A stretch of 64,000 nt of DNA, taken from contig JAGLTB010000040.1 in assembly GCA_023270155.1 (NCBI GenBank), positions 5,644-69,643 on the forward strand, written 5' to 3'. The stretch is from Candidatus Heimdallarchaeota archaeon. GTDB taxonomy: Archaea; Asgardarchaeota; Heimdallarchaeia; Heimdallarchaeales; Heimdallarchaeaceae. Positions 168 to 64,000 of the stretch are shown piece after piece; the stretch's first letter is position 1, and each line of letters starts with the position of its first letter. The notes below the pieces were generated by a model. It had not been told where the DNA came from, did not search any database, and worked only from the letters and a program-made list of their open reading frames with translations. A program made the translations under genes and the position numbers.

Positions 168-2006
168 TTACTTTTTTTCTTTGTTTAGTACTTTAAACCA
201 TTTAGGAAATGCTGAAACACCTTTTTTTTCCGCATTAAATTCCCAGATTATTAATCCGCCTTCTGTTGAAACTTTGTTAAAATTAGATTCAGTAAAAAGC
301 CTCTCCATAGCTTCATTTCTTTCAGTTTTTTGGTATTTTCCGATAAGGACTTTAACATCTTCTTTCATTGCTTCTTTCATAAGATAAGATAGAAATGTTT
401 CTTCTACAGTTTTACCCATTGCTCTGCAAGAGAAAGTTAAGATCTCCATTGTCCATTTATCAACTTCTTTCTTTACAACTGTAACTCCGATTAATCCGTA
501 TTCTCCATATCTATCATAGAGATTGACTATATAAACTCCAAATTCTGAAGACCTGTGAAATTCTAATAATTCATCTTTTGAATAACGTACTGCTGTTGCA
601 TTCAGTTGATTTGTTCTTTGTATAAGCTCAGTTACTCTTCCAAGATTTTCATCTTTAGCTTCTCGCATCCAAATTTCCAAGCTACACGAAAGAAGGAATC
701 CCTCTTTATCTAAAGCAAACGTCTTTTCATCTACTTCTCTCTTTTTTTGCTCAACATACAATTGTGTTCGTTTTGCACTCTCGTCAGTCAGTTTCCCAAC
801 TGGTTCAAATTCAACTCTGTTTAATGTATGAATTAACTCTGTTTCCGGTAGAACTAAAACATCTGGTAAAAATAAGGCAATTTGATCTCTCTCATAGGGA
901 TTGTCATCAAAGAATGCGACAGAATCAAGACCAATATTTAGCTCTTCAGCTATTTCCATAATACTCTGTGCTTTATCATTCCAATTAATTTTCTTGATTA
1001 CAATAGAATCTGCGATTGGTCCTAATACCTTGTTAACTAACGGTTCTATCGTACTATCGTTTTTGCTTGCAATAGCTAGGATGATTCCTCTTCGAGTCAG
1101 GAATTTAAGTACGGTTAATCGATTTTCATAAACATTGATTCCTTCTACTCCATCATCACGTAATATTCCATCCCACATTGTATTATCTAGATCTAAGACG
1201 ACACATTTTATTTTTCGACCATGAGCTTTGACAACTTTGAGATGATCTACAAGCTCCATTGAGATTGTAACGGCACCTTCTCGAGTAAAGTGTTCATAAA
1301 CACCATCAGCATCATTTTCTCTGATTTGGAGTCCAGTTGCTGCTTTGAGAAAAGTTTCATTAACTGATAGAACATATAAATCCTCATCCTGCTTTGCTAA
1401 ATCATAGAAAGAGGATTCCAATCTATTCAGAAACTCCCTTAGGCTATAACTACGCTCTAAATTTTTATAATCAAATCTTCCGAATGCAGGTCTTATAACA
1501 AGTGGATAAGTCATGATAAAATAGATAGCATTAAGCTTTGTTTTAGCTTTCTCTATACCATTATGAAGACGTTGTTTGACGAATTCCAGTTGGTCATCTT
1601 GTGATTTGAAATCAGATTTGTTATGTTGAATAGAACCTATTTCACTTCTAATAAATTGAACATCACTTAGAACAACAATGTTTGGATTGAAAGCATATAC
1701 ACCACTTTTGAAATCACTTAAAACCAAATTGGGGTCAGGTGATTCATTATGATCAAAGGTTAGATAACATGAAACTCCATTCGCTTCAAAAAACTCTTTC
1801 ATAAATTCTAATTCGCATCCACCAACAAAAGCGATTCTTTGTTGTGTTAAGAAATCCTTGTCTTCTTTTGGAAGTTCAGTTGCTATATTAATAGGTCTAG
1901 CCGCTTGAGTGAGTCTTGTTAGCACTGTATTCCTGAACTTCTTGTCAGTAATCATTCGTTTCATAATAGAAAGAATTCTCTTCAAACTCATTTGTTTTTC
2001 ACCCAA
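168..2006 (-). CDS. FkbH-like HAD-IIIC family protein: N-terminal domain, HAD phosphatase core, GNAT-like C-terminal domain
   Basis: 612 aa ORF. HAD motif I DLDNTMWDG, motif II IASKN and motif IV FFDDNP are present. The C-terminal ~200 aa has an acetyltransferase-like beta-rich pattern. The gene sits 6 nt from the downstream deacetylase-like gene on the same strand. Confidence 0.5.
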   Translation of the reverse strand: MGEKQMSLKRILSIMKRMITDKKFRNTVLTRLTQAARPINIATELPKEDKDFLTQQRIAFVGGCELEFMKEFFEANGVSCYLTFDHNESPDPNLVLSDFKSGVYAFNPNIVVLSDVQFIRSEIGSIQHNKSDFKSQDDQLEFVKQRLHNGIEKAKTKLNAIYFIMTYPLVIRPAFGRFDYKNLERSYSLREFLNRLESSFYDLAKQDEDLYVLSVNETFLKAATGLQIRENDADGVYEHFTREGAVTISMELVDHLKVVKAHGRKIKCVVLDLDNTMWDGILRDDGVEGINVYENRLTVLKFLTRRGIILAIASKNDSTIEPLVNKVLGPIADSIVIKKINWNDKAQSIMEIAEELNIGLDSVAFFDDNPYERDQIALFLPDVLVLPETELIHTLNRVEFEPVGKLTDESAKRTQLYVEQKKREVDEKTFALDKEGFLLSCSLEIWMREAKDENLGRVTELIQRTNQLNATAVRYSKDELLEFHRSSEFGVYIVNLYDRYGEYGLIGVTVVKKEVDKWTMEILTFSCRAMGKTVEETFLSYLMKEAMKEDVKVLIGKYQKTERNEAMERLFTESNFNKVSTEGGLIIWEFNAEKKGVSAFPKWFKVLNKEKK

Positions 2007-2012
2007 GTAACC

Positions 2013-2924
2013 CTAATACCACCAATCCGCATGAATTAGTATTTGAACGACATCTCCTGATTTAGCTTCTTTTAATTTGTCAAAGATATGAAAGCCAGGA
2101 TGTTTAATCATGTTCTTTCCGCCTGTATCAGTTATATAGATATCTTTTTTCATATCGTAAGCTGACCAAACATCAAGCTTTGTTTTGTCTACTAAAGGCC
2201 AGATTTTTTGGTTTGAATATTTGTCTCCATGATGAGATACTACTTTGATTGGTATATACTCTCTTAATTTATTTAATTCCTTTGCAAATAGGTCTAATGC
2301 TTCTTCAGTATTTCCTTTTGTCTGGCTTAATACTTCGTAATGAAAGCCGATTTCAAAACCTTCAGATTGCAAATATTGTATAATGGGAATTGCTTTTTCA
2401 AAAACATATTTCTCAGAATGTAATCTGAAAAATGATGTTGAAATTATATCCTTTTCAATTTCTAATTTTATTATGTTTAAGAGTCTATTAAGGGATAAAT
2501 CAACATCATGTCTAAGAAAAATATGTATTTTGTTTTTATCAAGCTGTGATGTATGATCATATTCGCTGAAACGCTTTACTGAGTATTGTTCTTTTTTCAA
2601 TTCATCTAGAAAACCAGCATATACACTCAATCTATAATAGTTGCTCCATCTTCTGAAAGGATATATCAAGGAAAGATTCAATATTATTCCAATGCTGAGA
2701 ACTAAAGGTGCAATCCATCGAGGTGGTGACCATTCATAAATGTAGAGAATAAGATAACTACTGATAACCACTGACAGTAATGCGAAGAAATTCAATGGTT
2801 GATAAAAAGGAAGCATATCTATGAAAAGAGTAGCATAACGATTTTCTTGAATCAGAGAGAATATTAAGAAAATCCAAGTGAGTAGGGATATACCTAATAG
2901 AATTGCTACAATAATCCACAACAT
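2013..2924 (-). CDS. membrane-anchored putative carbohydrate esterase/polysaccharide-deacetylase-like protein
   Basis: 303 aa with N-terminal TM helices and an RHDVD motif that resembles divergent NodB/CE4-like deacetylases. Probably co-operonic with the FkbH-like gene. Confidence 0.35.
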   Translation of the reverse strand: MLWIIVAILLGISLLTWIFLIFSLIQENRYATLFIDMLPFYQPLNFFALLSVVISSYLILYIYEWSPPRWIAPLVLSIGIILNLSLIYPFRRWSNYYRLSVYAGFLDELKKEQYSVKRFSEYDHTSQLDKNKIHIFLRHDVDLSLNRLLNIIKLEIEKDIISTSFFRLHSEKYVFEKAIPIIQYLQSEGFEIGFHYEVLSQTKGNTEEALDLFAKELNKLREYIPIKVVSHHGDKYSNQKIWPLVDKTKLDVWSAYDMKKDIYITDTGGKNMIKHPGFHIFDKLKEAKSGDVVQILIHADWWY

Positions 2925-16275: not shown

Positions 16276-19251
16276 TCAAGAAGAAGGAGACAGTAGAGTT
16301 AATTTCGTTTTGCAATAAGGACATCGTTCTTTTTCTTTAATCCAAGCTTTCAGATGGTTAAAATGAAAAATATGTTCACAAAGAGGACATTCGATACCAT
16401 TTTCATAAACAGGTTCTAGACAGATGAGACATTCATTTGAGGTTTCTTTCTCTTTCAATTTTGCTATGCCAACTTCTTTCGCTTTTTTGTGAATTCTATC
16501 TGCGATTATTATACTTTCTTGCATAGCAGGTTTCTTTGATTCAGCTTTTTGTTTAATAGCTCCTATTATTTTAGCTTTGTTTTGAAGATAGTTTATGTAA
16601 TTGCTTAAAGTTCCTTTACTGATATCTGAATCTCCAACAACTATGAGTTTTTTCTTTGCTCGAGTAATAGCAACGTTTAACCTACGATTATCTGCAAAAC
16701 CTTTGTTACCATGAAATTCAGATTCTGTTAATGAGAGAATTATAACTTCACGATCACTTCCTTGGAACCTATCTACTGTGTCCACTGTAATAGCTGATGG
16801 TAGATTCCTTCTAATCTCACTAACTTGACCTCTGTATGGACATATTATACCAAGTTGTTCTTCTTTCAATCCTAATTTCTGAAGGTTTGGAACAATTTCG
16901 CCTATTATTTTCGCTTCTTCCTTGTTTAATTTTTTATCATGCATAAAAGCACCTTTAGTAGGAAGAAAGATCAACGGATTTTCTGGATTGTAGATCTCAG
17001 CATCTTTGAAAGTTCCAAATGTCTCCTTGAAATTAGTTAAGTTTGATAGAGATTGTGATTTGACTTCTTCATCAAAGGATTCTAATTTTCCATCATAAAA
17101 TTCGTTGTTTGAAAATTCAATTAGTTTTTCATTCATTCTGAATTGTCTCGTTAGAAGATGTATATCTTCAGAATATACTTTTGCTAATCTTTCAAATATT
17201 GAAATCCCTAATCCTTCTTGTAACACCTTCGGGTTTTGAATTACAGGAGGGAGTTGCTTATGATCACCAACAAGAACAAATCTATCTCCTTCAATCAGCG
17301 CAGATAGAACTGTTGTTTCAGTCATTTGACTGGCTTCATCGATAATTACAGTTTGAATACCCATCTTCTCAAACACAGGGTTTGAAATCGAGGAAGTTGT
17401 TGATATTATAATTGGAATATCCTGAAGAATCTTTGTTGTGGATTTATCTACATTCCTTTCCTTATATGCTTTCAGAGTATAGTTGTGAATTTCTGATTGA
17501 ATAGAGTGAGTTCCTCCAAGCCTTACAAAACCACTATAACCATTTTCCAGTAAATATTTACAAATATTATCAACCGCTCTATTTGTGAATGCAGTAAGTA
17601 ATACTTTTTCACCATTGTTTGCAAGAGTAATAGCTGCTTTTGCTATTACATAGGTTTTTCCTGTTCCCGCGGGTCCTTGAATAAGACAGTAATTTTGAGT
17701 CCCCAATATTCTTTCAATTGCTTGATTCTGAATTTGATTATTAGAGATATAATCTCCTTTCACATGTTTAATATCTGGAGGTTTTTCTTCAATTACATAT
17801 TCTTTATACTTGTTTTTTCGAAATACAAGATTAAAAAGGCCTCTTTGTTGTCTTCTGAAACCAACGTCAATAGAATATTGATCCACAACTGTAATTTTTT
17901 CTGACATTGAACGTGTAATAATCTCAATAGAAGTACCACTAATGGAAGACACTACTCCCGTCACTATAGATCCCTTGAGAATATCCCCTTGACTAAGAAC
18001 AACAATATCTCCCTCACGCAATTCAGATTTATTATTGCATGAAAATAGTAAGCGAGTATGTCCTATTTCTTTGGTTTCATTTTCTAAAACTAAATTTTCA
18101 ATCGATTTACCTTTAGCAACTCTTTGTTCGACTTTTAGCTTCCACAAATCAGAGAAATTCCTACGAGATTCGTTTTTCTCCTCCCTTATCCAACGAGTAT
18201 ATCGGTTGAAGTAGTCCTGATGAGATTTCGGTAGTTCTTTTTTTGTACAATATGATTCATGATGACATGTAGAACAGTTACGTTCTTGGTTCAAGCCTGC
18301 ACACACAATCGCACAATAATGTTTCGTGAAGCAATTTCTGCACTTGTTTTTATCTTTGGGAGGAAGAATTTTTGGTTCATATCCCAAATAAGAAACTCTG
18401 TATGCGGTGTTTCTCTGATTCATTGCATATCGTAACAAACCCCAATTTGGTTGAGCTTTCTTCTCCACAACCTTTTTTGTACCTACATAGATTACTGTTC
18501 CCTCATTTGGTTTAGTTTGCTCAGTAAAATTTTCTAGACCATAACGATATGCTGTTACTTGTAGTAAATCTGAAAACCGCAATTCCTTATCTTCTGTTAG
18601 TTTTGCTGTTTTTAATTCAAATATATGGTCATTATGCAGAATATCTATTCTTCCCCTAATCCCATAAAAGGGGGATAAAAATAATATTTCAGGTATAGTC
18701 TGGCCTTTCAAATTCTCAACAAATGGATCAAGACATTCAACCATTTCTCGAACATCCTGATAAACTGCTTCTTTAGTATATCCAATATTCTCATATTGCA
18801 GTGAAAAAGCATCCAGTACAGCAGAAAGTTCCTCAGATGGTTTGGAGTTACTAACAAGGGCAGCATTTAAACAATCATGAACAATTGAACCCCTTATAGC
18901 TACGTAAGGAGAAGGTAATTCACCAATAATTTCATTCAGATAATAACTTCGAGGACAAAAGGAGACATTATTTATTGCAGTTGCATTGATCAAGATATCA
19001 GGATCCACAACAAATATTGATTTTGATCCAACTGAATAGAAGGTAGTATCATCCTTTTCTTTCTTTTCTGTGTTAAAAACTCTAAAAGAAGTGTAGGGTT
19101 GTATATAATCACTTACATCATGCCAAGGTGACCATAGATTTATCACAATATTTTCTTTCTCGATTGCAGCTAAAATTGTTGAACGAGGATTGTCACCGTT
19201 AGAACTTGAAAGAGTTTTGATATATACACCTGTTAAGTCAACCATTGTCAT
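16276..19251 (-). CDS. Dna2-like nuclease-helicase (Cas4/RecB-type Fe-S PD-(D/E)xK nuclease, Upf1-like SF1B helicase) with C-terminal RING/PHD-like zinc finger
   Basis: Nuclease region: CPRSYYL, D..ELK and the Cys cluster CRNCFTKHYC..C. Helicase region: GPAGTGKT, DEASQ, VGDHKQLPP, QFRMN and VDRFQGSDREV. C-terminus: CLIC-x10-CPLCEHIFHFNH-x10-CPYC. Confidence 0.75.
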   Translation of the reverse strand: MTMVDLTGVYIKTLSSSNGDNPRSTILAAIEKENIVINLWSPWHDVSDYIQPYTSFRVFNTEKKEKDDTTFYSVGSKSIFVVDPDILINATAINNVSFCPRSYYLNEIIGELPSPYVAIRGSIVHDCLNAALVSNSKPSEELSAVLDAFSLQYENIGYTKEAVYQDVREMVECLDPFVENLKGQTIPEILFLSPFYGIRGRIDILHNDHIFELKTAKLTEDKELRFSDLLQVTAYRYGLENFTEQTKPNEGTVIYVGTKKVVEKKAQPNWGLLRYAMNQRNTAYRVSYLGYEPKILPPKDKNKCRNCFTKHYCAIVCAGLNQERNCSTCHHESYCTKKELPKSHQDYFNRYTRWIREEKNESRRNFSDLWKLKVEQRVAKGKSIENLVLENETKEIGHTRLLFSCNNKSELREGDIVVLSQGDILKGSIVTGVVSSISGTSIEIITRSMSEKITVVDQYSIDVGFRRQQRGLFNLVFRKNKYKEYVIEEKPPDIKHVKGDYISNNQIQNQAIERILGTQNYCLIQGPAGTGKTYVIAKAAITLANNGEKVLLTAFTNRAVDNICKYLLENGYSGFVRLGGTHSIQSEIHNYTLKAYKERNVDKSTTKILQDIPIIISTTSSISNPVFEKMGIQTVIIDEASQMTETTVLSALIEGDRFVLVGDHKQLPPVIQNPKVLQEGLGISIFERLAKVYSEDIHLLTRQFRMNEKLIEFSNNEFYDGKLESFDEEVKSQSLSNLTNFKETFGTFKDAEIYNPENPLIFLPTKGAFMHDKKLNKEEAKIIGEIVPNLQKLGLKEEQLGIICPYRGQVSEIRRNLPSAITVDTVDRFQGSDREVIILSLTESEFHGNKGFADNRRLNVAITRAKKKLIVVGDSDISKGTLSNYINYLQNKAKIIGAIKQKAESKKPAMQESIIIADRIHKKAKEVGIAKLKEKETSNECLICLEPVYENGIECPLCEHIFHFNHLKAWIKEKERCPYCKTKLTLLSPSS

Positions 19252-20151: not shown

Positions 20152-22404
20152 TTATTTTACTTGAGTAGATCTTCCTCTTCCAAAATCTGAAATCACTATG
20201 TATGATACCAGTTTTGCGAAATATGTAGATCTGCTAAGAATGCCAACAACTTCATTCGTTGCTTCATCTTGAGCTGCAATCAAAACTTCTTCATTTTCTC
20301 GTTCAACACCAATGAAACGAGGCATTTCAACACCTGTTCCAGAATCTCTTAGCTTTCTTAATTCCACATTTGCCTGGGCATTTGTCATTGTATTTATCCA
20401 ATCTCTATCAGTTTCCTCATCCAGACTCGTGATTATTGTGACTTTAGCTGTGGTTGGAAGCTGCTTTATAGATTCTGTTGGAATATATTCAATCTTAGGT
20501 ACCATAATAGTCACTCCTCTCTTTGTATCTGTCACAATTCTAGACACGTGATCCAAAACAGCATCTAATCCCACAATTGAAGTTGTTTGAACTGGAGGAA
20601 TTTGAGACTCACTTGAAGTGGCTTCTAAGGTTCTGAAATCGTTTTTCAGTTTCATTGTTGCGCTTATTAGATAGTTAGCTGTATCTGTTAATTTTCTTTC
20701 TGAATCTTCAATAAACTTAACAGAAGAGTCAACTTCCTCAGTCAATTTGCCAGAAACTAGCTCCCTACTCTCTCGTATCCCGTTCTTTGAACTGTCAATT
20801 GCTTCTCTCGAAATGTTCAACGCAGATTCTATTGTTTTTTGAAGATGATTGTTTAAGCCAGATACAACCTCTGAAATAGTTGATTGAAACGAACTTTTAG
20901 ATTCATCGTATTTTTCATTAAGCTTTGTTTCAGTTTCCTGAGAAAGAAAATCCAATCTTTGTGATATTGTTTCCCAATTTTCTTTCAAAGATGATGATTC
21001 TGTAGTAAGATCTTGAGCAAGTGTTGTGTTTAGTTGAGTAGATAACTCCTTGAATTTGGTTAATTGAGAACGAATGCTGTTGACAATCTCTTCTGTTGTT
21101 GTATTAATTTGTTCAATTAAACTCTCTTCAAATCCACTGAAACGAGTAGTTGCTAGTTCTTTGACTTCATTTATTTTTTCATTGTATTCGTTAATAGCAG
21201 TAGTATATTGCGCATCTAGTTTTTGAATGAACATATCTCTTTCACTAACTAAATTATTCTTCTGAGTCTGTTCTTTGTTTTCTAAATCAGTGAATTTTAG
21301 ATTCATGCTTTCTCTGATTTGAGAAATTGAGCTTGAAATTGCTTGGTTTTTCTGCTGCATTAGTTCTTCTAATAAACTAACTTTAATTTGTGATACTTTC
21401 TCATTTAAAGCTGAGAGAGATTCCTTAATTTGGAGAGAAAGATCTTCTACTTTGTTGTTCAAAACCATGTCAAGGGAATTATTTAAATCAGTAAGAGAAC
21501 TTGAGACAGTTTCTGAAATTCCTTCGATTGTTTGTTCAGTATCTCTTGTTATTTCAGTGGAATAGCCTACATACTTTTCGGTTTGACCTCTGTTGAATGC
21601 TCTTACATCCATTTTTGTAGTATCTATGTTTTGTTTAATTTGTGCAATTGTTGAATCTATATCATCTAGATACTGTTGATTCATTGCATCAAATTTTGGT
21701 TTTGCTATTTTTGCAATTCCGGATATATTGTCTATAGATGTTTGAGAATTTTCCTCTATTTCTGTAGTGAATACAGTAAGATTCTCTTCATTTTTTGCTT
21801 TAATGTTGGAAACAGAAGATTCAATAGAAACTTTAGATTTATTCAAGCTTTCAATGCTATCCGTAAATACACTCTGCAATGTTGTTTGAACGTTTCTTCT
21901 ATGATTGTCTTGATCTGTGAGTATTTTGGATGAAAAAGCTCCTGTTTTCTCATTAATATCTTCTTTTTGTTGTTGGTTTAAGGTTTGAATTGAAGAAGAT
22001 GTTTGTGTTAATTTCTGATCTAATTCAGCTTCTTTTCTCGATACTGATTCATTTAAACTAATTGATAGATTACCTTTCAATTGATTAAACGTTTCTTTCT
22101 TTTCTTGGAGAAAAGATGTTGTCTGACCCAGAGTGCTTTTAACATTCTCGCTTAGTTGATCGCTTGTAGTTCCCAAGTAGTCCAATGGGATTTTCACGTA
22201 ATATTTTTTTACATATCCTTCCGAAGCACCAACAGCACCTTTATTCAACAGAGAATCTAATGCAACTTTAACCTTTGAAAAATGTAACTTGCTAAACTGT
22301 GTTATTTCAAAAGTAGTCAATTGACCTCCACCTAAAAGAAGTTGGTAAACTTGTTTTTCTTCAGGATTTAGTTGTAATCTTTCAATAAAGGACATTTTTT
22401 TCAC
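20152..22404 (-). CDS. TrmB-like wHTH / ~550-aa S/T/N/Q-rich coiled-coil / conserved C-terminal globular domain protein
   Basis: N-terminal EEKQVYQLLL..GQLTTFEITQFSKLHFSKVKVALDSLLNKGAV matches the TrmB/MarR-type wHTH. The central region is long and helical. The C-terminal ~150 aa is paralogous to the C-terminus of the ORF at 62374-64000. Confidence 0.5.
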   Translation of the reverse strand: MKKMSFIERLQLNPEEKQVYQLLLGGGQLTTFEITQFSKLHFSKVKVALDSLLNKGAVGASEGYVKKYYVKIPLDYLGTTSDQLSENVKSTLGQTTSFLQEKKETFNQLKGNLSISLNESVSRKEAELDQKLTQTSSSIQTLNQQQKEDINEKTGAFSSKILTDQDNHRRNVQTTLQSVFTDSIESLNKSKVSIESSVSNIKAKNEENLTVFTTEIEENSQTSIDNISGIAKIAKPKFDAMNQQYLDDIDSTIAQIKQNIDTTKMDVRAFNRGQTEKYVGYSTEITRDTEQTIEGISETVSSSLTDLNNSLDMVLNNKVEDLSLQIKESLSALNEKVSQIKVSLLEELMQQKNQAISSSISQIRESMNLKFTDLENKEQTQKNNLVSERDMFIQKLDAQYTTAINEYNEKINEVKELATTRFSGFEESLIEQINTTTEEIVNSIRSQLTKFKELSTQLNTTLAQDLTTESSSLKENWETISQRLDFLSQETETKLNEKYDESKSSFQSTISEVVSGLNNHLQKTIESALNISREAIDSSKNGIRESRELVSGKLTEEVDSSVKFIEDSERKLTDTANYLISATMKLKNDFRTLEATSSESQIPPVQTTSIVGLDAVLDHVSRIVTDTKRGVTIMVPKIEYIPTESIKQLPTTAKVTIITSLDEETDRDWINTMTNAQANVELRKLRDSGTGVEMPRFIGVERENEEVLIAAQDEATNEVVGILSRSTYFAKLVSYIVISDFGRGRSTQVK

Positions 22405-32479: not shown

Positions 32480-32548
32480 GAAATCACTTTATAGCCTTTA
32501 GCAATGATTTTATATGTAATTAATATAATAGTAAGTTGTAGATTCAAG

Positions 32549-33406
32549 ATGTCAAAGAAAGATGAATTCAAATCACTTGTTGGTTCCATTAACATGGTAA
32601 AGAACATGGTTGAAAGCATTGTTTCAGCAGTTCAAGATCGTTTCAAAGATTATGATAATGTTGTAGTATCATTAAAGGAAAGATTAGACAAACTAGAAGC
32701 TCAAGAGGGACAAAGTACATCTACTCAAGCAGTACCAGCAGATGCTACAGGTTTCATTAACAGAATAGAGCAATTAACAAAAAGAATGGATAGTTTAAAT
32801 GAACGAATCCTGCTTATAGAAGCAACAAAAAGTGTTCATGATGAAACTGTAGTGGAACCCACAGATGTTCAAGCAATAAAAGAAATAGCAGCAGAAGTTC
32901 CATCTGCTATACCAGCACCTATTCCAACACCAGTACCTGAAGAAGCTGAAGCAATTGCTGAATTTGAAATTCCAACAGAAGCTCCTGAGAAGGAATTAAC
33001 ATCAATCCCAGCACCACCTACACCTGAATCTATTCCAGTTCCAGGTGCGGAAATTCCTTCGGCACCACCAATACAGAAAATTGATGAAGTAGAATTTCCA
33101 AAGGTTGCACCTATTGCTCCCTCCGCAGAAATTCCAGCACCACCAGCTCCTAAACCTGCTACACAAGTTACAGAAGATGTTGAAAGAGACGTAAGTCCCA
33201 TTTCTAAACAGGTAAGTGGAAGCATACCTATGCCTCCTAAAAAAGAAGGAGTTGCGGATGCAACAGAAATTCAACCTTCAGTCCTTAAAACTGAAGAAGA
33301 TGCAACAGTACCTGAAGAAGGAAAATCAGCAGAGATTTTTGGTGAAGCAGTCAGCGGAGATAAAGCAGAACTTCTTAAAGCTTTGAAGAAATTAGAAGAT
33401 CTTTAA
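32549..33406 (+). CDS. coiled-coil protein with long Pro/Ala/Glu-rich low-complexity region
   Basis: An N-terminal ~120-aa helical region is followed by PAPIPTPVPEE / IPAPPTPESIPVP / IPAPPAPKPAT-type repeats. The ATG at 32549 is preferred over the ORF-track start. Confidence 0.4.
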   Translation: MSKKDEFKSLVGSINMVKNMVESIVSAVQDRFKDYDNVVVSLKERLDKLEAQEGQSTSTQAVPADATGFINRIEQLTKRMDSLNERILLIEATKSVHDETVVEPTDVQAIKEIAAEVPSAIPAPIPTPVPEEAEAIAEFEIPTEAPEKELTSIPAPPTPESIPVPGAEIPSAPPIQKIDEVEFPKVAPIAPSAEIPAPPAPKPATQVTEDVERDVSPISKQVSGSIPMPPKKEGVADATEIQPSVLKTEEDATVPEEGKSAEIFGEAVSGDKAELLKALKKLEDL

Positions 33407-34767: not shown

Positions 34768-35424
34768 CTATGCTTGAGCTTCTAAAAGGAATAATCTTTT
34801 CTTTAGAATATAGAATTTCTTAGCAAACTCAATGCTCGAAATTTCATAATCTTCAAATTGTTGTTCTATCGCAAAGATTTCACTTTCTACATTTAATATT
34901 TCGTCTTCAATGTGCTTTTGTTTCTCTTGTTGTAATGTTTTGTTGCTTACTTGGCTTGGTTTCTTTGCTGATATTTCATTTAATTCCCTCTTTTTTTCTT
35001 CGAGAATAATTGTCAATTGTTCCTTTTGTTTTGTCAAGGGTGTAAGTTGATTCTGAGGATCTATTGCTTCTGCTTCAGCTTTAATCATTCTTGCAGGAAC
35101 TTTAGAAAACAACCTGATTGTTTCCACAATCACTTGAAAAATATGATAACTTGATCTCCATCTAGCAAGCATTCTCATTTCTAGAAAATTGTCATGAGTT
35201 AAATTTGGATGTGTTATAGGAGTTATAATTTTCACTTGTGGTGGAGTTTCTGGAAAAGAATCTGTAAGATAGATTTCAACTTCTACTAATAATTCACCTT
35301 CATCTGAAATAGCGGGAACAAAACCCCTCCATTTAGTCAAATCCCCTGCGATTGGTTCAAATGCATAAGCTCTTTCCATCACAAGACTATATTCTTTTGC
35401 TAAGACGCTATCTGGAACTGTCAT
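34768..35424 (-). CDS. ESCRT-I Vps23/TSG101-like protein: UEV (catalytically inactive E2) domain, coiled coil, steadiness-box-like C-terminus
   Basis: UBC-fold pattern LAKEYSLV..IAGDLTKWRGFVP..FPETPPQVKIITPITHPNL..LARW with no Cys after HPN. C-terminal EFAKKFYILKKRLFLLEAQA resembles TSG101 VFLKHVRLLSRKQFQLRALMQKA. Confidence 0.55.
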   Translation of the reverse strand: MTVPDSVLAKEYSLVMERAYAFEPIAGDLTKWRGFVPAISDEGELLVEVEIYLTDSFPETPPQVKIITPITHPNLTHDNFLEMRMLARWRSSYHIFQVIVETIRLFSKVPARMIKAEAEAIDPQNQLTPLTKQKEQLTIILEEKKRELNEISAKKPSQVSNKTLQQEKQKHIEDEILNVESEIFAIEQQFEDYEISSIEFAKKFYILKKRLFLLEAQA

Positions 35425-35533
35425 AATATCCTAACACCTTTCTTGTAAGTATTTCACAGCGTTATATTTATAGATTCTCTTTTCTATTAAAACAAAATTC
35501 AACATCTCTAGATTTTTATATTAACATTTTTCC

Positions 35534-44696: not shown

Positions 44697-46262
44697 GTGA
44701 GCATTAGAGAAACTGAACACATTGAAGTCCTATATCATCAACCTGGACATCTTAAAGGTGTTACTAGAATAGAAGAGATAGAAGACTACATTTTTACGGG
44801 TGGGGAAGATGGGAGAATTTGTATTTGGGATTCGAATCTCAATGATGAAATAGGATGTTTATACGCTCACAAATTCTCAATTAATGACATTCAGAAACTA
44901 AATGATGAAGAAATCCTAGTCACTGCTTCGAATGACTTAGAATTAAAACTCTGGTCTCTAAAGGATTTCTCGTTGATTCTCTCTAAAAAGGCTCATTCTT
45001 CAGCAATCATAGGAGGAAAACCTTGGAGGAATTACGTAATTAGCGCAAGTAGAGATCATATGATTAAGAAATGGAAATTCAAGGATGGTAAATTAATAGA
45101 AGAGAATCGAACAAAATTCCCAGGTATGGAGAAATTCTTTCTTTGTGGAGATTTGATTGTAATTACCGATCAAAATGGATTAATGTCCATTCTTAACGCT
45201 GAAGATTTTTCTAAGTTCAGATATAATGCAATAGATAAGAAGAAACTGATTAGAGCTATTAAGAAGGCTGGAAAATACATAAAGGATTTTGAGAACCAAG
45301 ATTCCCACACTATCCTCTTTAATATGGTTAGAAGATATGGGATTCCTTCAACAGTTTGTACCACAACTGAAGATCTCTTCATCTTAGGTCATCAATTTGG
45401 TTTAGTATCTTTCTGGAAAAGGGATAATGGTAAATTATTCGAAACTCTTTTCCTTCATAGCAAACACATTACAGGCATTGGATTTCTGGGAAGCAAATTA
45501 ATCACAATTTCCTTAGATTCTACTGTTGTAATTTCCGACATAGATACTGCTACACCTATTAAATCAGTAAAACTCCCATCACGTCCTTTGTCTTTAAAGA
45601 AATCAACAAATGGATTAATAATTATTGGCTTGGAATCAGGGGAGATTGCAGTTCTTAACCATCAATTAGAGATTACCAGAACACTACCTAAAATAGTTCC
45701 AATCTCAAGCTCTTGCATAACACCAGATTTCCTTGCTTTAGCTTTCAGTAATGGTGAGATTCAATTATTGAATAATACTAATCTGAAGAGTGTCATCAAG
45801 AAGAAGATTCATAACAAAACACCCCTTTCAATTAGCTATTATAAGAATCGTTTGATAACTGTAGGTGAGGATAAACAAATCTATTTTCTAGATAAAGAAT
45901 TATATGTAACAAAAACAATTCAACTAACGGTGAATCCTACTCAACCAAAACAAGCAAAACACTATATAGCCATAAATTCAAACCATGTTTTGGATTTGAA
46001 CAAAGATGAAATAATAAAGGGGGAAATATCCAGAGAAACGGAGAGGGAATTAGAAGATGAATTCTTTCCTAAATATAAATATCAAAACGGTGATCTTTCA
46101 ATTTTAATCTATAAACAGAGTTTGGAAGAAACAGAAAATAATAAAATATCGGAATTTTATGAAGAAGAAGTTTTAGAGTCTTTTGGAAAACTAGTTAAAT
46201 CAAGTGGAAATAGAAAATACATCAAAACAACGGATTTAACAGTATTACGTTTGAAAAACTGA
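44697..46262 (+). CDS. WD40-repeat beta-propeller protein (two propellers likely)
   Basis: Repeated GH..WD-like units (GGEDGRICIWD, ASNDLELKLWS, ASRDHMIKKWK ...) across 521 aa. GTG start. Confidence 0.65.
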   Translation: MSIRETEHIEVLYHQPGHLKGVTRIEEIEDYIFTGGEDGRICIWDSNLNDEIGCLYAHKFSINDIQKLNDEEILVTASNDLELKLWSLKDFSLILSKKAHSSAIIGGKPWRNYVISASRDHMIKKWKFKDGKLIEENRTKFPGMEKFFLCGDLIVITDQNGLMSILNAEDFSKFRYNAIDKKKLIRAIKKAGKYIKDFENQDSHTILFNMVRRYGIPSTVCTTTEDLFILGHQFGLVSFWKRDNGKLFETLFLHSKHITGIGFLGSKLITISLDSTVVISDIDTATPIKSVKLPSRPLSLKKSTNGLIIIGLESGEIAVLNHQLEITRTLPKIVPISSSCITPDFLALAFSNGEIQLLNNTNLKSVIKKKIHNKTPLSISYYKNRLITVGEDKQIYFLDKELYVTKTIQLTVNPTQPKQAKHYIAINSNHVLDLNKDEIIKGEISRETERELEDEFFPKYKYQNGDLSILIYKQSLEETENNKISEFYEEEVLESFGKLVKSSGNRKYIKTTDLTVLRLKN

Positions 46263-62373: not shown

Positions 62374-64000
62374 TTATACTTCCACATCACTGGAATGAAA
62401 TAGAACATCTCTATTTATAGCAGCTTTGAACAATTGCAAAAGAAGATCATTTGTTGTTCTAACAGCAATTGGAACTTCATCAGTAGAAAGAAATGCGAAA
62501 ATAGCTTCTTGATTACCATCAAGAATTCCACAGAAAACATCTTTCTTTTCATAGTGTTTTAACTTCAAACCGGTGAATCTTTCTGATAAAGGTCTAAGCA
62601 GTGTTTGGTGTTTACTTTTATCAAACGATGAGACTAAAGTTATTCGTTGAGCTTTTGTATATTGCATCATTTCTTTTAATAACTCTTCATCAACATCGGG
62701 AGTAACCAAAAGCAACTCAAATTTAGAACGCATTGCAATATCTGTTACACTCGCCTTAATAGCCTCTTCTCCAACAATTATTGATGTGTTATGCTGACCA
62801 TCGAAGGAATAAGTAGAAGCTGATTTATCTATTTGTTTAAGCTCATCTTCTCTAGTATTAATGACTTGGTAAAAGGTCATTGCTTTTTCCATTAAAGAAT
62901 CGAGTTGAGATACTAAAATTTCATCTACATCTTTGATTACAGCAGCTACTTGTGACACAAGAGTATTAATCTGAATGTCTTCCCCTTCAGTAACTTGCTT
63001 GACAATTTGATCTTTATGCTCTTCCTTGTAATCCTTCAAGTTCTGTTTTGTATTTGTTAGCTCTTGCGCAAAGGCTTCTTTTTTCGTATTCACTTGCTCA
63101 TTGAAACTAGTAACAGAAGATTGTAGCTTTTCTTTTAAATCCAAAGCCATCTTTTCAGAATCTTGTTTTGATCTGCTTAGTTCCTTTATGACATTTGATT
63201 GCAGCTTTTCTATCACTTGAAATTGATCATTTGCATAGATCTTAACTTCCTTTGTTGCTTGTTCTTTCATTGCTGTTAATTGCTCATCTGTCGTCTGTTT
63301 CAGTTCTTGAGTTACTTGTGAGCATGAATCATAAGAAGATCTAGCATATGTTTCAGTTTGGTTTTGAAGTAAATCTAGTAAATCGCTTGGAAGTAAGTCA
63401 ATTTTTTCCAATGTAGCATCAATAAGCAGATTCTTCTTTGTTCTTATTGTAGTTTCACCATCAAGTTGGAAATGATCGAGCTGTGATCTGATTTCATCCC
63501 TGACTTCATTTAGTGCTAGAACATGTTGATCGATTAATTGTAAACCGCTTTCATTGAGATCATTTGCTAAATTTCTTACGGTATCTCTTGCATCTATCAA
63601 GGGTGACTCAATTTGTTTTCTTGCTTTTCCTAATTTTAGAACAGCTGAAGAGTCTATGCTATTAATAGCCTCAGCAATCTTCGAGGACAAGAAGTTTGTT
63701 TGTCTGTCTATCTGCTCAACACTCCTACGTAGTTCTTGGGTTTGTTTTATTTGCTCAGAGAACAGATTATTCACGTCTTGTGATAATGCATCTACAATCT
63801 TCTTTGATTCATTAATCCAACCCGAATAGGCTTCTTGCCAAACTTTGTTGTAGTTATCAGAAAAAGATTCTTGAATCTCCGAAATTTTACCGACTAACTC
63901 TTTAAGTTCCACATCTATTTCCGGTGCAAGTTTTTCTAAGAACTCATGGTGATTATCAGTATGAGCATCAAGCCCGTTACTAACAATTTTTTTCAGATTG
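62374..64000 (-). CDS. long coiled-coil protein paralogous to 20152-22404 (N-terminus beyond window end)
   Basis: The reading frame stays open to the window edge. An S/T/N/Q/E/K-rich helical region is followed by a C-terminal domain whose TSIIVG..KAQRITLVSSFD.. pattern parallels TSIVGL..AKVTIITSLD of the other copy. Confidence 0.45.
   Translation of the reverse strand, partial: NLKKIVSNGLDAHTDNHHEFLEKLAPEIDVELKELVGKISEIQESFSDNYNKVWQEAYSGWINESKKIVDALSQDVNNLFSEQIKQTQELRRSVEQIDRQTNFLSSKIAEAINSIDSSAVLKLGKARKQIESPLIDARDTVRNLANDLNESGLQLIDQHVLALNEVRDEIRSQLDHFQLDGETTIRTKKNLLIDATLEKIDLLPSDLLDLLQNQTETYARSSYDSCSQVTQELKQTTDEQLTAMKEQATKEVKIYANDQFQVIEKLQSNVIKELSRSKQDSEKMALDLKEKLQSSVTSFNEQVNTKKEAFAQELTNTKQNLKDYKEEHKDQIVKQVTEGEDIQINTLVSQVAAVIKDVDEILVSQLDSLMEKAMTFYQVINTREDELKQIDKSASTYSFDGQHNTSIIVGEEAIKASVTDIAMRSKFELLLVTPDVDEELLKEMMQYTKAQRITLVSSFDKSKHQTLLRPLSERFTGLKLKHYEKKDVFCGILDGNQEAIFAFLSTDEVPIAVRTTNDLLLQLFKAAINRDVLFHSSDVEV

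What the first reader, a model, noticed from the sequence alone, without database searches (positions are those of the whole stretch)
34768..35424. Compact ESCRT-I Vps23/TSG101-like protein (UEV domain, coiled coil, steadiness-box-like tail) in an orphan location
The N-terminal 130 aa follow the UBC/E2 fold closely (FPETPPQVKIITPITHPNL...LARW). The catalytic Cys after HPN is missing, which defines an inactive E2 variant (UEV) as in Vps23/TSG101. A short coiled coil follows. The C-terminus, EFAKKFYILKKRLFLLEAQA, resembles the TSG101 steadiness box. At 218 aa the protein is compact. It is not flanked by ESCRT-II/III, Vps4 or ubiquitin genes; its neighbours are ABCE1 and a GlcNAc-1-P transferase.
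Basis: partly seen in the sequence, partly recalled or inferred. Interest (0 to 1): 0.7.

Follow-up and report, generated by a model that had tools for sequence, protein, structure and literature searches.

The report
Free-standing Vps23-like ubiquitin E2 variant

Summary
The ORF at 34768-35424 (- strand, 218 aa) is real and under purifying selection (dN/dS about 0.09-0.10). Residues 1-113 form a UBC/E2 fold (Pfam UQ_con E=3.4e-10). The HPN motif is kept, Glu82 sits at the catalytic-Cys position, and the protein has no Cys at all. A stalk helix (123-153) and a helical hairpin (161-217) follow.

It aligns end to end with two experimentally studied Asgard ESCRT-I proteins: the HeimAB125_14070 UEV-Vps23-Vps28 fusion (BLASTP 4e-31) and Odin Vps23 (hhalign 99.7%). 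The tail alone matches their stalk plus steadiness-box region (E about 3e-6; reversed controls P about 0.016).

A direct match to metazoan TSG101, to Pfam Vps23_core, or to Mod_r is not significant.

It is the ortholog of HeimAB125_11700 (As_001-p_01107, asCOG cog.005825, "E2 fused to Vps23 core domain"). So it is a known, uncharacterised family.

The same genomes carry the fusion inside the ubiquitin-ESCRT cluster. This gene is therefore a second, free-standing paralog, held between ABCE1 and a GlcNAc-1-P transferase operon.

Its likely role is non-catalytic ubiquitin binding plus hairpin-mediated assembly, possibly as a partner of the fusion. That role is inferred, not shown.

The parts
34768..35424 (-). 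Complete gene, 218 codons plus stop: free-standing UEV - stalk - hairpin protein, ortholog of HeimAB125_11700 / As_001-p_01107
   Evidence: ORF; 36 homolog clusters; dN/dS about 0.09-0.10; L007 ortholog identified
35086..35424 (-). UBC-fold (E2 variant, UEV) domain, residues 1-113
   Evidence: Pfam UQ_con E=3.4e-10; PF05743 UEV above cut-off in some members; AF2 model; Foldseek top hits are E2 and Mms2; 39% identical to the ubiquitin-binding UEV of HeimAB125_14070
35203..35211 (-). HPN motif (His72-Pro73-Asn74) retained from active E2s
   Evidence: invariant in alignment A1, but NPN in AB_125 and lost in more distant members
35179..35181 (-). Glu82 at the position of the E2 catalytic cysteine
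   Evidence: Alignment to E2 chains; codon checked; column holds E/D/S/A/T and never C in the family; no Cys in the whole protein
34966..35058 (-). Stalk helix, residues 123-153
   Evidence: AF2 models; aligns to the stalk of the fusion and of Odin Vps23
34852..34944 (-). Hairpin helix 1, residues 161-191, acidic (EDEILNVESEIFAIEQQFE)
   Evidence: AF2, pLDDT above 90; aligns to fusion residues about 208-230, within its Pfam Vps23_core match
34774..34836 (-).
   Evidence: AF2; hhalign to the fusion and to Odin Vps23; same ungapped register as the TSG101 steadiness box, but P=0.19
35425..35533 (.). 109-bp AT-rich intergenic region shared with the divergently transcribed ABCE1 gene; presumed promoter region (inferred)
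   Evidence: the divergent ABCE1 neighbour is kept wherever upstream flank exists

Best explanation
The gene encodes a free-standing paralog of the Asgard ESCRT-I subunit Vps23.

Shown here:
- It has a UBC-fold domain that cannot form a thioester, because Glu replaces the catalytic Cys and the protein has no Cys.
- A coiled-coil stalk helix and a C-terminal acidic/basic helical hairpin follow.
- The whole chain is colinearly homologous to Odin Vps23 and to the Vps23 part of the Heimdallarchaeaceae UEV-Vps23-Vps28 fusion.
- It is the ortholog of HeimAB125_11700 (asCOG cog.005825).
- It coexists with the fusion in the same genomes.

Inferred:
- The UEV domain binds ubiquitin or ubiquitylated cargo non-covalently, as its 39%-identical paralog does.
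- The stalk and hairpin mediate assembly, either as a homo-oligomer or by supplying the extra hairpin and stalk helix to the fusion. The fusion carries a Vps23-type and a Vps28-type hairpin in cis.
- That assembly would mirror the 2 Vps23 : 1 Vps28 complex of Odinarchaeota and the Vps23/Vps37 pair of eukaryotes.
For: Fold and dead active site.

Full-length homology to bona fide Asgard Vps23:
- BLASTP against HeimAB125_14070: query 1-217 to subject 4-254, E=4e-31. The tail also matches the second, Vps28-type hairpin (E=0.002).
- BLASTP against Odin Vps23: E=1e-14.
- hhalign of the family against Odin Vps23: probability 99.7%, 208 columns.

Tail alone:
- Against the Odin Vps23 C-terminus: probability 87.6%, E=3.5e-6, 93 columns.
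- Against a 24-sequence fusion profile: tail 4-92 to fusion 162-249, E=3.2e-6. A second hit falls at 269-312, E=6.6e-5.
- Reversed-sequence controls give P=0.015-0.018.
- Pfam Vps23_core maps to fusion residues 208-249.

Orthology and annotation: the L007 translation matches the HeimAB125_11700 snippet. Makarova 2024 labels that ORF (contig 66, 5423..6079) cog.005825, 'E2 fused to Vps23 core domain'.

Coexistence with the fusion in single MAGs: AB_125; YT1_048, loci L019 and L042; GOP50 locus tags.

The fusion lies in a ubiquitin-E1-fusion-Vps22-Vps25-Vps4-Snf7x2 cluster.

Ubiquitin binding by the paralogous UEV and by Odin Vps23, and the 2:1 Vps23:Vps28 complex, are from Hatano 2022 (PMC9192718) and Lu 2023.

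A divergent family member lies 1-3.5 kb from two ThiF genes and a ubiquitin gene.
Against: - There are no ESCRT or ubiquitin genes in the 64-kb window. The conserved neighbours are housekeeping genes in divergent or convergent orientation. Other lineages place the gene next to RNA polymerase A''. Context therefore gives no functional link in most lineages.
- No family member hits Pfam Vps23_core. The Mod_r (Vps37) and GvpG hits are no better than hits of reversed sequences.
- Profiles of the tail find no ESCRT-I chain in the PDB.
- Comparison with a metazoan TSG101 C-terminal profile is not significant.
- The UBC domain scores higher with UQ_con than with TSG101-type UEV.
- Ubiquitin binding and any partner are untested for this family.
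- According to Lu et al., Kari- and Gerdarchaeia hold a similar short UEV protein alongside an unfused UEV-Vps23. The protein is therefore not tied to the fusion.
Confidence: 0.6

Rival explanations
1. Mms2/Uev1-type cofactor. The dead E2 domain pairs with one of the active Heimdall E2s and positions an acceptor ubiquitin for chain building. The coiled-coil tail only localises or oligomerises it.
For: HPN is retained. Pfam UQ_con scores above UEV in every member. Mms2/UEV2 chains are among the best PDB sequence and fold matches. Heimdall AB_125 has two bona fide E2s.
Against: Known Mms2/Uev1 proteins are single-domain and about 140 aa (established knowledge). This protein is colinear with Vps23 through stalk and hairpin. 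No E2 gene is nearby. HPN is lost in the wider family while the tail is kept.
Confidence: 0.12
2. Regulator or decoy. As a free Vps23-like protein lacking the Vps28 module, it competes with the fusion for ubiquitylated cargo or for hairpin partners, and so tunes ESCRT-I output rather than being a structural subunit.
For: It has the same UEV-stalk-hairpin architecture but no Vps28 domain. It has a separate locus and presumably a separate promoter. Its tail matches both hairpin types of the fusion.
Against: There is no expression or interaction data. The gene shows strong purifying selection and is present across all 26 representative-genome loci recovered from Heimdallarchaeaceae and relatives. 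That fits a core subunit equally well.
Confidence: 0.1
3. Ubiquitin-independent scaffold. The UBC/RWD-like domain plus coiled coil acts in a housekeeping process such as translation or transcription, as suggested by its fixed position beside ABCE1, or beside RNA polymerase A'' in other lineages.
For: The ABCE1 / UEV / TM97 / GPT arrangement is conserved in all 26 loci where flank exists. Adjacency to rpoA'' occurs in three further lineages. Weak RWD hits appear in 5-7 members.
Against: The neighbours differ between lineages and are divergent or convergent, not co-transcribed. RWD scores are below cut-off and far below UQ_con. Homology to ubiquitin-binding Vps23 proteins is strong. One member sits next to ubiquitin and E1 genes.
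Confidence: 0.08
4. A bona fide, active E2 ubiquitin-conjugating enzyme, as some database records name it.
For: The UQ_con Pfam match and the HPN motif. Some NCBI and JGI records call homologs 'ubiquitin-conjugating enzyme E2' or 'ubiquitin-protein ligase'.
Against: Glu sits at the catalytic position, the 218 residues contain no cysteine, and no family member has Cys in that column.
Confidence: 0.01

Closest known systems
[quoted passage not shown] 2022, PMC9192718; Makarova et al. 2024, PMC10936438)
   Same: Ortholog: 68% identity, the same 218-aa length, and the same ABCE1 / membrane protein / AglH neighbourhood. Hatano lists it as an E2-like protein without the catalytic Cys.
   Different: Nothing of substance. 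AB_125 has NPN instead of HPN. It is uncharacterised experimentally; Hatano discarded residues 91 to the C-terminus of its model for low confidence.
HeimAB125_14070, the Heimdallarchaeaceae UEV-Vps23-Vps28 fusion (469 aa)
   Same: Colinear UEV, stalk and first hairpin (E=4e-31). The UEV domains are 39% identical. Same asCOG. Its UEV binds Heimdall ubiquitin (Hatano 2022; Lu 2023).
   Different: The fusion continues into a Vps28-type hairpin and the Vps28 C-terminal domain. It hits Pfam Vps23_core and VPS28. It sits in the ubiquitin-E1-ESCRT-II-Vps4-ESCRT-III cluster. The window protein stops after one hairpin and lies elsewhere.
Odinarchaeota Vps23 (OdinLCB4_14270)
   Same: Same three-part architecture and similar size (about 250 aa). 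hhalign probability is 99.7% over 208 columns; the tail alone gives E=3.5e-6. Like the window protein, it has no Pfam Vps23_core hit.
   Different: 24% identity. The Odin gene is in the ubiquitin/ESCRT cluster, and its protein was shown to bind ubiquitin and Vps28 as a 2:1 complex. None of this has been tested for the window family.
Eukaryotic TSG101 / Vps23
   Same: Domain order: UEV without the catalytic Cys, coiled-coil stalk, C-terminal helical hairpin. The best ungapped register of the hairpin matches the TSG101 steadiness box.
   Different: The similarity is not significant (P=0.19). There is no Pro-rich linker and the protein is about half the length. HPN is retained. The UBC domain is closer to E2/Mms2 than to the TSG101 UEV.
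'UEV_X' group of Lu et al. 2023 (bioRxiv 10.1101/2023.07.25.550441)
   Same: A UEV followed by a helical region at about residues 170-210 with a weak GvpG (PF05120) resemblance. Found in Heimdall-, Kari- and Gerdarchaeia. The family here has the same geometry, weak GvpG hits in 4 of 23 members, and Heimdall and Kari members.
   Different: Identity of the two groups could not be verified, because accession OLS29001.1 is not retrievable here. The GvpG resemblance is at noise level in my control, whereas homology of the tail to the Vps23 stalk plus hairpin is supported.

Membership tests
UBC / E2 superfamily (Pfam PF00179) | UBC fold recognised by the family profile above its curated cut-off | tested here: met
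   E=3.4e-10, 40.1 bits against 27; 21 of 21 close members; Foldseek top hits are E2s at TM about 0.6 on the target
Active E2 ubiquitin-conjugating enzyme | Catalytic cysteine about 10 residues after the His of HPN | tested here: not met
   Glu82 at that position; no Cys in the protein; no Cys in that column in 23 diverse members
UEV (E2 variant) | UBC fold lacking the catalytic Cys | tested here: met
UEV (E2 variant) | Match to the TSG101/Vps23-type UEV profile (PF05743) above its cut-off | tested here: inconclusive
   The window protein scores 13.8 bits against 27. Some members exceed the cut-off (41.5, 37.3, 31.6, 27.7 bits), but UQ_con is always higher
UEV (E2 variant) | Non-covalent ubiquitin binding | not testable with these tools
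   Inferred only from 39% identity to the ubiquitin-binding UEV of HeimAB125_14070
ESCRT-I Vps23 / TSG101 | Architecture: N-terminal UEV, coiled-coil stalk, C-terminal helical hairpin | tested here: met
   AF2 models; full-length colinear alignments to two Asgard Vps23 proteins
ESCRT-I Vps23 / TSG101 | Steadiness box / Vps23 core (Pfam PF09454) | tested here: inconclusive
   No PF09454 hit among the families listed for the window protein or for the 23 members scanned, and no significant match to a metazoan TSG101 profile. However, the tail matches the Asgard Vps23 stalk plus hairpin (E about 3e-6, controls about 0.016), and that region carries PF09454 in the fusion. Validated Odin Vps23 also lacks a PF09454 hit
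ESCRT-I Vps23 / TSG101 | Assembly with Vps28 (and Vps37 or a second Vps23) into ESCRT-I | not testable with these tools
   No multimer prediction or experiment was available
ESCRT-I Vps23 / TSG101 | Genomic linkage to ubiquitin / ESCRT genes, as is typical of Asgard Vps23 | tested here: not met
   None in the 64-kb window. A paralogous fusion occupies the cluster. One divergent member lies near ubiquitin and E1 genes
asCOG cog.005825 ('E2 fused to Vps23 core domain') | Orthology to a listed member (As_001-p_01107, AB_125 contig 66, 5423..6079) | tested here: met
   L007 5423-6079 is 68% identical, has the same length and the same neighbours
Vps37 (Pfam Mod_r PF07200) | Profile match above cut-off or above noise | tested here: not met
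   Best score 23.3 bits against 30.1. 9 of 23 members hit at E up to 10, with a best E of 3.1e-5. Reversed sequences give comparable coiled-coil hits: 10 of 23 members for one family, and a best single E of 6.7e-5
Mms2 / Uev1 | Single-domain UEV of about 140 aa that pairs with Ubc13 | tested here: not met
   A 105-aa stalk-plus-hairpin extension is conserved in the whole family. Pairing with an E2 is not testable here
RWD domain (PF05773) | Profile match above cut-off | tested here: not met
   Best score 18.1 bits against 22.8, in a minority of members

The most novel reading that the evidence does not exclude
The 218-aa protein is the missing third subunit of Heimdallarchaeaceae ESCRT-I. Its stalk helix and hairpin would pack against the Vps23-type and Vps28-type hairpins of the UEV-Vps23-Vps28 fusion. 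The result would be a three-hairpin headpiece carrying two UEV domains. The protein would then occupy the position that Vps37 holds in eukaryotes and would represent a Vps23-derived precursor of the Vps23/Vps37 split. A conserved neighbour gene that carries P(S/T)AP motifs could be one of its ligands.
Probability: 0.25. Interest if true: 0.65.

Novelty: already known. Interest (0 to 1): 0.3.

Why it matters
Asgard ESCRT-I is the best available window on how the eukaryotic ubiquitin-dependent sorting machinery arose. Hatano et al. found no clear Asgard Vps37 and proposed that a second Vps23 copy fills that place.

Heimdallarchaeaceae fuse Vps23 and Vps28 into one chain and also keep this separate Vps23-like gene. 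Whether the two proteins assemble would show how a heteromeric ESCRT-I evolved.

For the scan itself, the result is mainly a confirmation. However, the family is already annotated ('E2 fused to Vps23 core domain') and listed among Heimdall UEV proteins, so little here is new. What this analysis adds is a quantified link from the tail to the stalk-plus-hairpin region, and evidence that the GvpG and Mod_r resemblances are noise.

Tried and rejected
- **PDB sequence searches with tail profiles (A2, A4).** Only generic coiled-coil hits appeared (uL29, lamin, prefoldin). No ESCRT-I chain was found.
- **hhalign of the tail against single TSG101 and VPS37B sequences.** No signal.
- **hhalign against a 20-sequence metazoan TSG101 C-terminal profile.** Not significant. 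Restricted to the hairpins, it finds the expected ungapped register, but at P=0.19.
- **Pfam Mod_r (Vps37) and GvpG leads.** Rejected after a reversed-sequence control gave equally good coiled-coil hits.
- **HMMER search of the tail profile against 1.84 billion representatives.** Only 24 hits, nearly all 205-227-aa proteins of the same architecture (one of 268 aa, several shorter fragments). No eukaryotic ESCRT-I protein was found.
- **Gene context of more distant members.** Mostly housekeeping neighbours (RNA polymerase A'', S12, MFS). Only one lies near ubiquitin and E1 genes.
- **The 84-aa ORF next to the fusion as an alternative third hairpin.** It shows no similarity to the tail. Makarova labels the corresponding gene 'Vps28 C-terminal region'.
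- **Lu et al.'s 'Heimdall UEV-Vps23' SPR construct (JAEOTK010000223.1_89).** I could not establish whether it belongs to this family.
- **Lu et al.'s UEV_X example OLS29001.1.** I could not establish whether it is a member.

Full report
**Observation.** The window holds an ATG-to-stop ORF of 218 codons at 34768-35424 on the minus strand.

Pfam UQ_con matches above its curated cut-off (E=3.4e-10, 40.1 bits against 27). phmmer against PDB returns E2 enzymes and Mms2/UEV chains at 5e-5 to 1e-3.

In the E2 register (HPN, seven residues, Cys), the catalytic position is Glu82 (FLEMRML against SICLDIL). The protein has no cysteine anywhere.

An AlphaFold2 model built on 21 homologs (mean pLDDT 82) shows a UBC core at residues 1-113. 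It has a long beta-hairpin (28-40 and 43-52) and lacks the two C-terminal helices of E2s. Helices follow at 123-153, 161-191 and 197-217.

The gene is real. There are 36 clusters of homologs of about 218 aa. dN/dS is 0.09-0.10 against close orthologs. The exact sequence occurs on 17 public contigs.

The neighbours are as stated: ABCE1 divergent upstream, and a GT4/GlcNAc-1-P transferase operon convergent downstream. I found no ubiquitin, E1, E2 or ESCRT gene in the 64 kb.

**Organism and family.** Homologs come from Candidatus Heimdallarchaeaceae (Asgard archaea).

A profile of the tail alone, searched against 1.84 billion representative proteins, found only 24 proteins. Nearly all are 205-227 aa with the same architecture. 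The named ones include Kariarchaeaceae and other Heimdallarchaeota.

Across this wider family the Cys column never holds Cys. HPN is not conserved. The tail motif L-E-x-E-L-F-A-L-E-x-Q-F-x-x-x-E-I-x-x-x-E-F-A-K-K-F is conserved.

**Is the tail a steadiness box? Direct tests against eukaryotic references failed.**
- No family member hits Pfam Vps23_core.
- Tail profiles find no ESCRT-I chain in PDB.
- hhalign against a metazoan TSG101 C-terminal profile is not significant.
- Sub-threshold Mod_r (Vps37) hits occur in 9 of 23 members and weak GvpG hits in 4 of 23. These looked suggestive, but reversed sequences give coiled-coil hits of the same strength. I discard both.

**Comparison with Asgard ESCRT-I proteins succeeded.** I took the sequences from Hatano et al. 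2022 Supplementary Data 1.
- BLASTP of the window protein against HeimAB125_14070, the UEV-Vps23-Vps28 fusion, gives one colinear alignment: query 1-217 to subject 4-254, E=4e-31. The tail also matches the fusion's second, Vps28-type hairpin (E=0.002).
- Against Odin Vps23, the alignment is again end to end (E=1e-14).
- hhalign of the family against Odin Vps23 gives 99.7% probability over 208 columns.
- With the UEV domain removed, the tail profile still matches the Odin Vps23 C-terminus (87.6%, E=3.5e-6, 93 columns).
- The tail profile also matches a 24-sequence fusion profile: tail 4-92 to fusion 162-249, E=3.2e-6. A second hit falls at 269-312, E=6.6e-5. Reversed controls give P=0.015-0.018.
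- Pfam Vps23_core maps to fusion residues 208-249, at 23.6-30.2 bits against a cut-off of 26.8. That is inside the segment that aligns with the window hairpin.
- Odin Vps23, which has been shown to assemble with Vps28, also lacks a Vps23_core hit. The absence of that hit in the window family is therefore uninformative.

I conclude that the tail is homologous to the Asgard Vps23 stalk plus steadiness-box hairpin. Homology to the eukaryotic box follows only transitively.

**What is already known.** The AB_125 ortholog (L007 5423-6079, 68% identity) contains the peptide shown for HeimAB125_11700 in Hatano's Supplementary Fig. 7B. That paper lists it as one of two AB_125 E2-like proteins lacking the catalytic Cys, and leaves it uncharacterised.

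Makarova et al. [quoted passage not shown] That is the same asCOG as the fusion As_001-p_01333. A 210-aa LC_2 protein next to RNA polymerase A'' carries the same label under cog.005829. This matches the context of the more distant members I recovered.

Lu et al. 2023 describe a 'UEV_X' group: a UEV plus a weak GvpG-like region at residues 170-210, in Heimdall-, Kari- and Gerdarchaeia. It fits this family in geometry and distribution, but I could not verify that they are the same.

**Relation to the canonical ESCRT-I gene.** The fusion family has 46 clusters of mostly about 470 aa, most with precomputed Pfam VPS28 and UQ_con hits and many also with Vps23_core. It sits in a cluster of ubiquitin, E1, fusion, small Vps28-CTD protein, Vps22, Vps25, Vps4 and two Snf7 genes.

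Both genes occur in the same genomes:
- AB_125 (11700 and 14070).
- MAG YT1_048 (L019 and L042).
- The GOP50 MAG.

The window gene is therefore a second, free-standing Vps23 paralog. Its position, ABCE1 then UEV then TM protein then GPT, is kept in all 26 genome loci where flanking DNA exists. The orientations are divergent and convergent, so the context carries no functional message. One divergent member lies 1-3.5 kb from two ThiF genes and a ubiquitin gene.

**Mechanism.**

Shown: the protein is a catalytically dead UBC domain, followed by a stalk and a hairpin homologous to Asgard Vps23.

Inferred:
- The UEV binds ubiquitin. Its domain is 39% identical to that of the fusion, whose isolated UEV binds Heimdall ubiquitin through the hydrophobic patch (Hatano 2022; Lu 2023 reports Kd 4e-6 M).
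- The hairpin and stalk mediate assembly. In Odinarchaeota, ESCRT-I is 2 Vps23: 1 Vps28. In eukaryotes the headpiece is built from three hairpins. The Heimdall fusion carries two hairpins in cis. The free paralog is thus a natural candidate for the third.

This last step is a hypothesis. Rival readings are a Mms2-like E2 cofactor, a decoy or regulator, and a ubiquitin-independent scaffold. Each is listed in the rival section with the result that would refute it. An active E2 is excluded by the sequence.

**Verdict.** The thing is ordinary in the sense that the family is already catalogued and annotated with the same label. This analysis adds three points:
1. A quantified, controlled link between the tail and the Vps23 stalk plus hairpin.
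2. Evidence that the GvpG and Mod_r resemblances are noise.
3. Explicit evidence that the gene coexists with the fusion at a fixed, separate locus.

Interest is modest.

Noticed in passing
window 32504-33406 (+): A 300-aa protein lies two genes from the UEV gene, in the convergent operon NTPase_1 / this gene / AglH-type GPT / 97-aa membrane protein. It has an N-terminal coiled coil, a Pro-rich linker with PSAP at residue 185, and an invariant C-terminal helix GDKAELLKALKKLEDL (hydrophobic spacing L-x3-L-x2-L). It has no Pfam family. P[ST]AP occurs in 13 of 22 syntenic orthologs, against 2.7 expected from shuffles of the Pro-rich segment, and at six or more different positions. TSG101-type UEV domains bind P(T/S)AP, so this may be a ligand. 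The orthologs are related, so the enrichment is not a clean statistic.
   Followed up: partly
window 16276-19251 (-): A 991-aa Dna2-like protein combines a PD-(D/E)XK nuclease and an SF1 helicase (AAA_11/AAA_12) with a C-terminal RING finger (zf-RING_2, E=7.7e-7, residues 939-981). It is the only other ubiquitin-system-type domain seen in the window.
   Followed up: no
L030 4937-10214: The most divergent family member (P0064, 217 aa) lies in a neighbourhood with two ThiF/E1-like genes, a 78-aa ubiquitin, a Roadblock/LC7 gene, and two unannotated proteins of 286 and 292 aa.
   Followed up: partly
window 32609-32704 against residues 179-217 of the target protein: The N-terminal coiled coil of the 300-aa neighbour (VESIVSAVQDRFKDYDNVVVSLKERLDKLEAQE) weakly resembles the target's hairpin (38% over 39 aa, E=0.1). 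This is probably chance.
   Followed up: no
L027-L029, L032-L033; Makarova 2024 supplementary file 9 (LC_2 contig): In at least three non-Heimdallarchaeaceae lineages, the roughly 207-210-aa family member lies directly next to RNA polymerase subunit A''. Its orientation varies between lineages.
   Followed up: no
window 44697-46262 (+); 20152-22404 (-); 168-2006 (-), 2013-2924 (-), 62374-63912 (-): A 521-aa WD40 beta-propeller protein. A 750-aa protein with a TrmB HTH and long apolipoprotein-like helical repeats. Three large ORFs (612, 303 and 512 aa) with no Pfam match at E up to 1e-5.
   Followed up: no
L034 3441-3977; L041 438-968: A small Arf/Ras-family GTPase gene lies about 4-5 kb upstream of the ubiquitin-ESCRT cluster in two Heimdallarchaeaceae contigs.
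   Followed up: no
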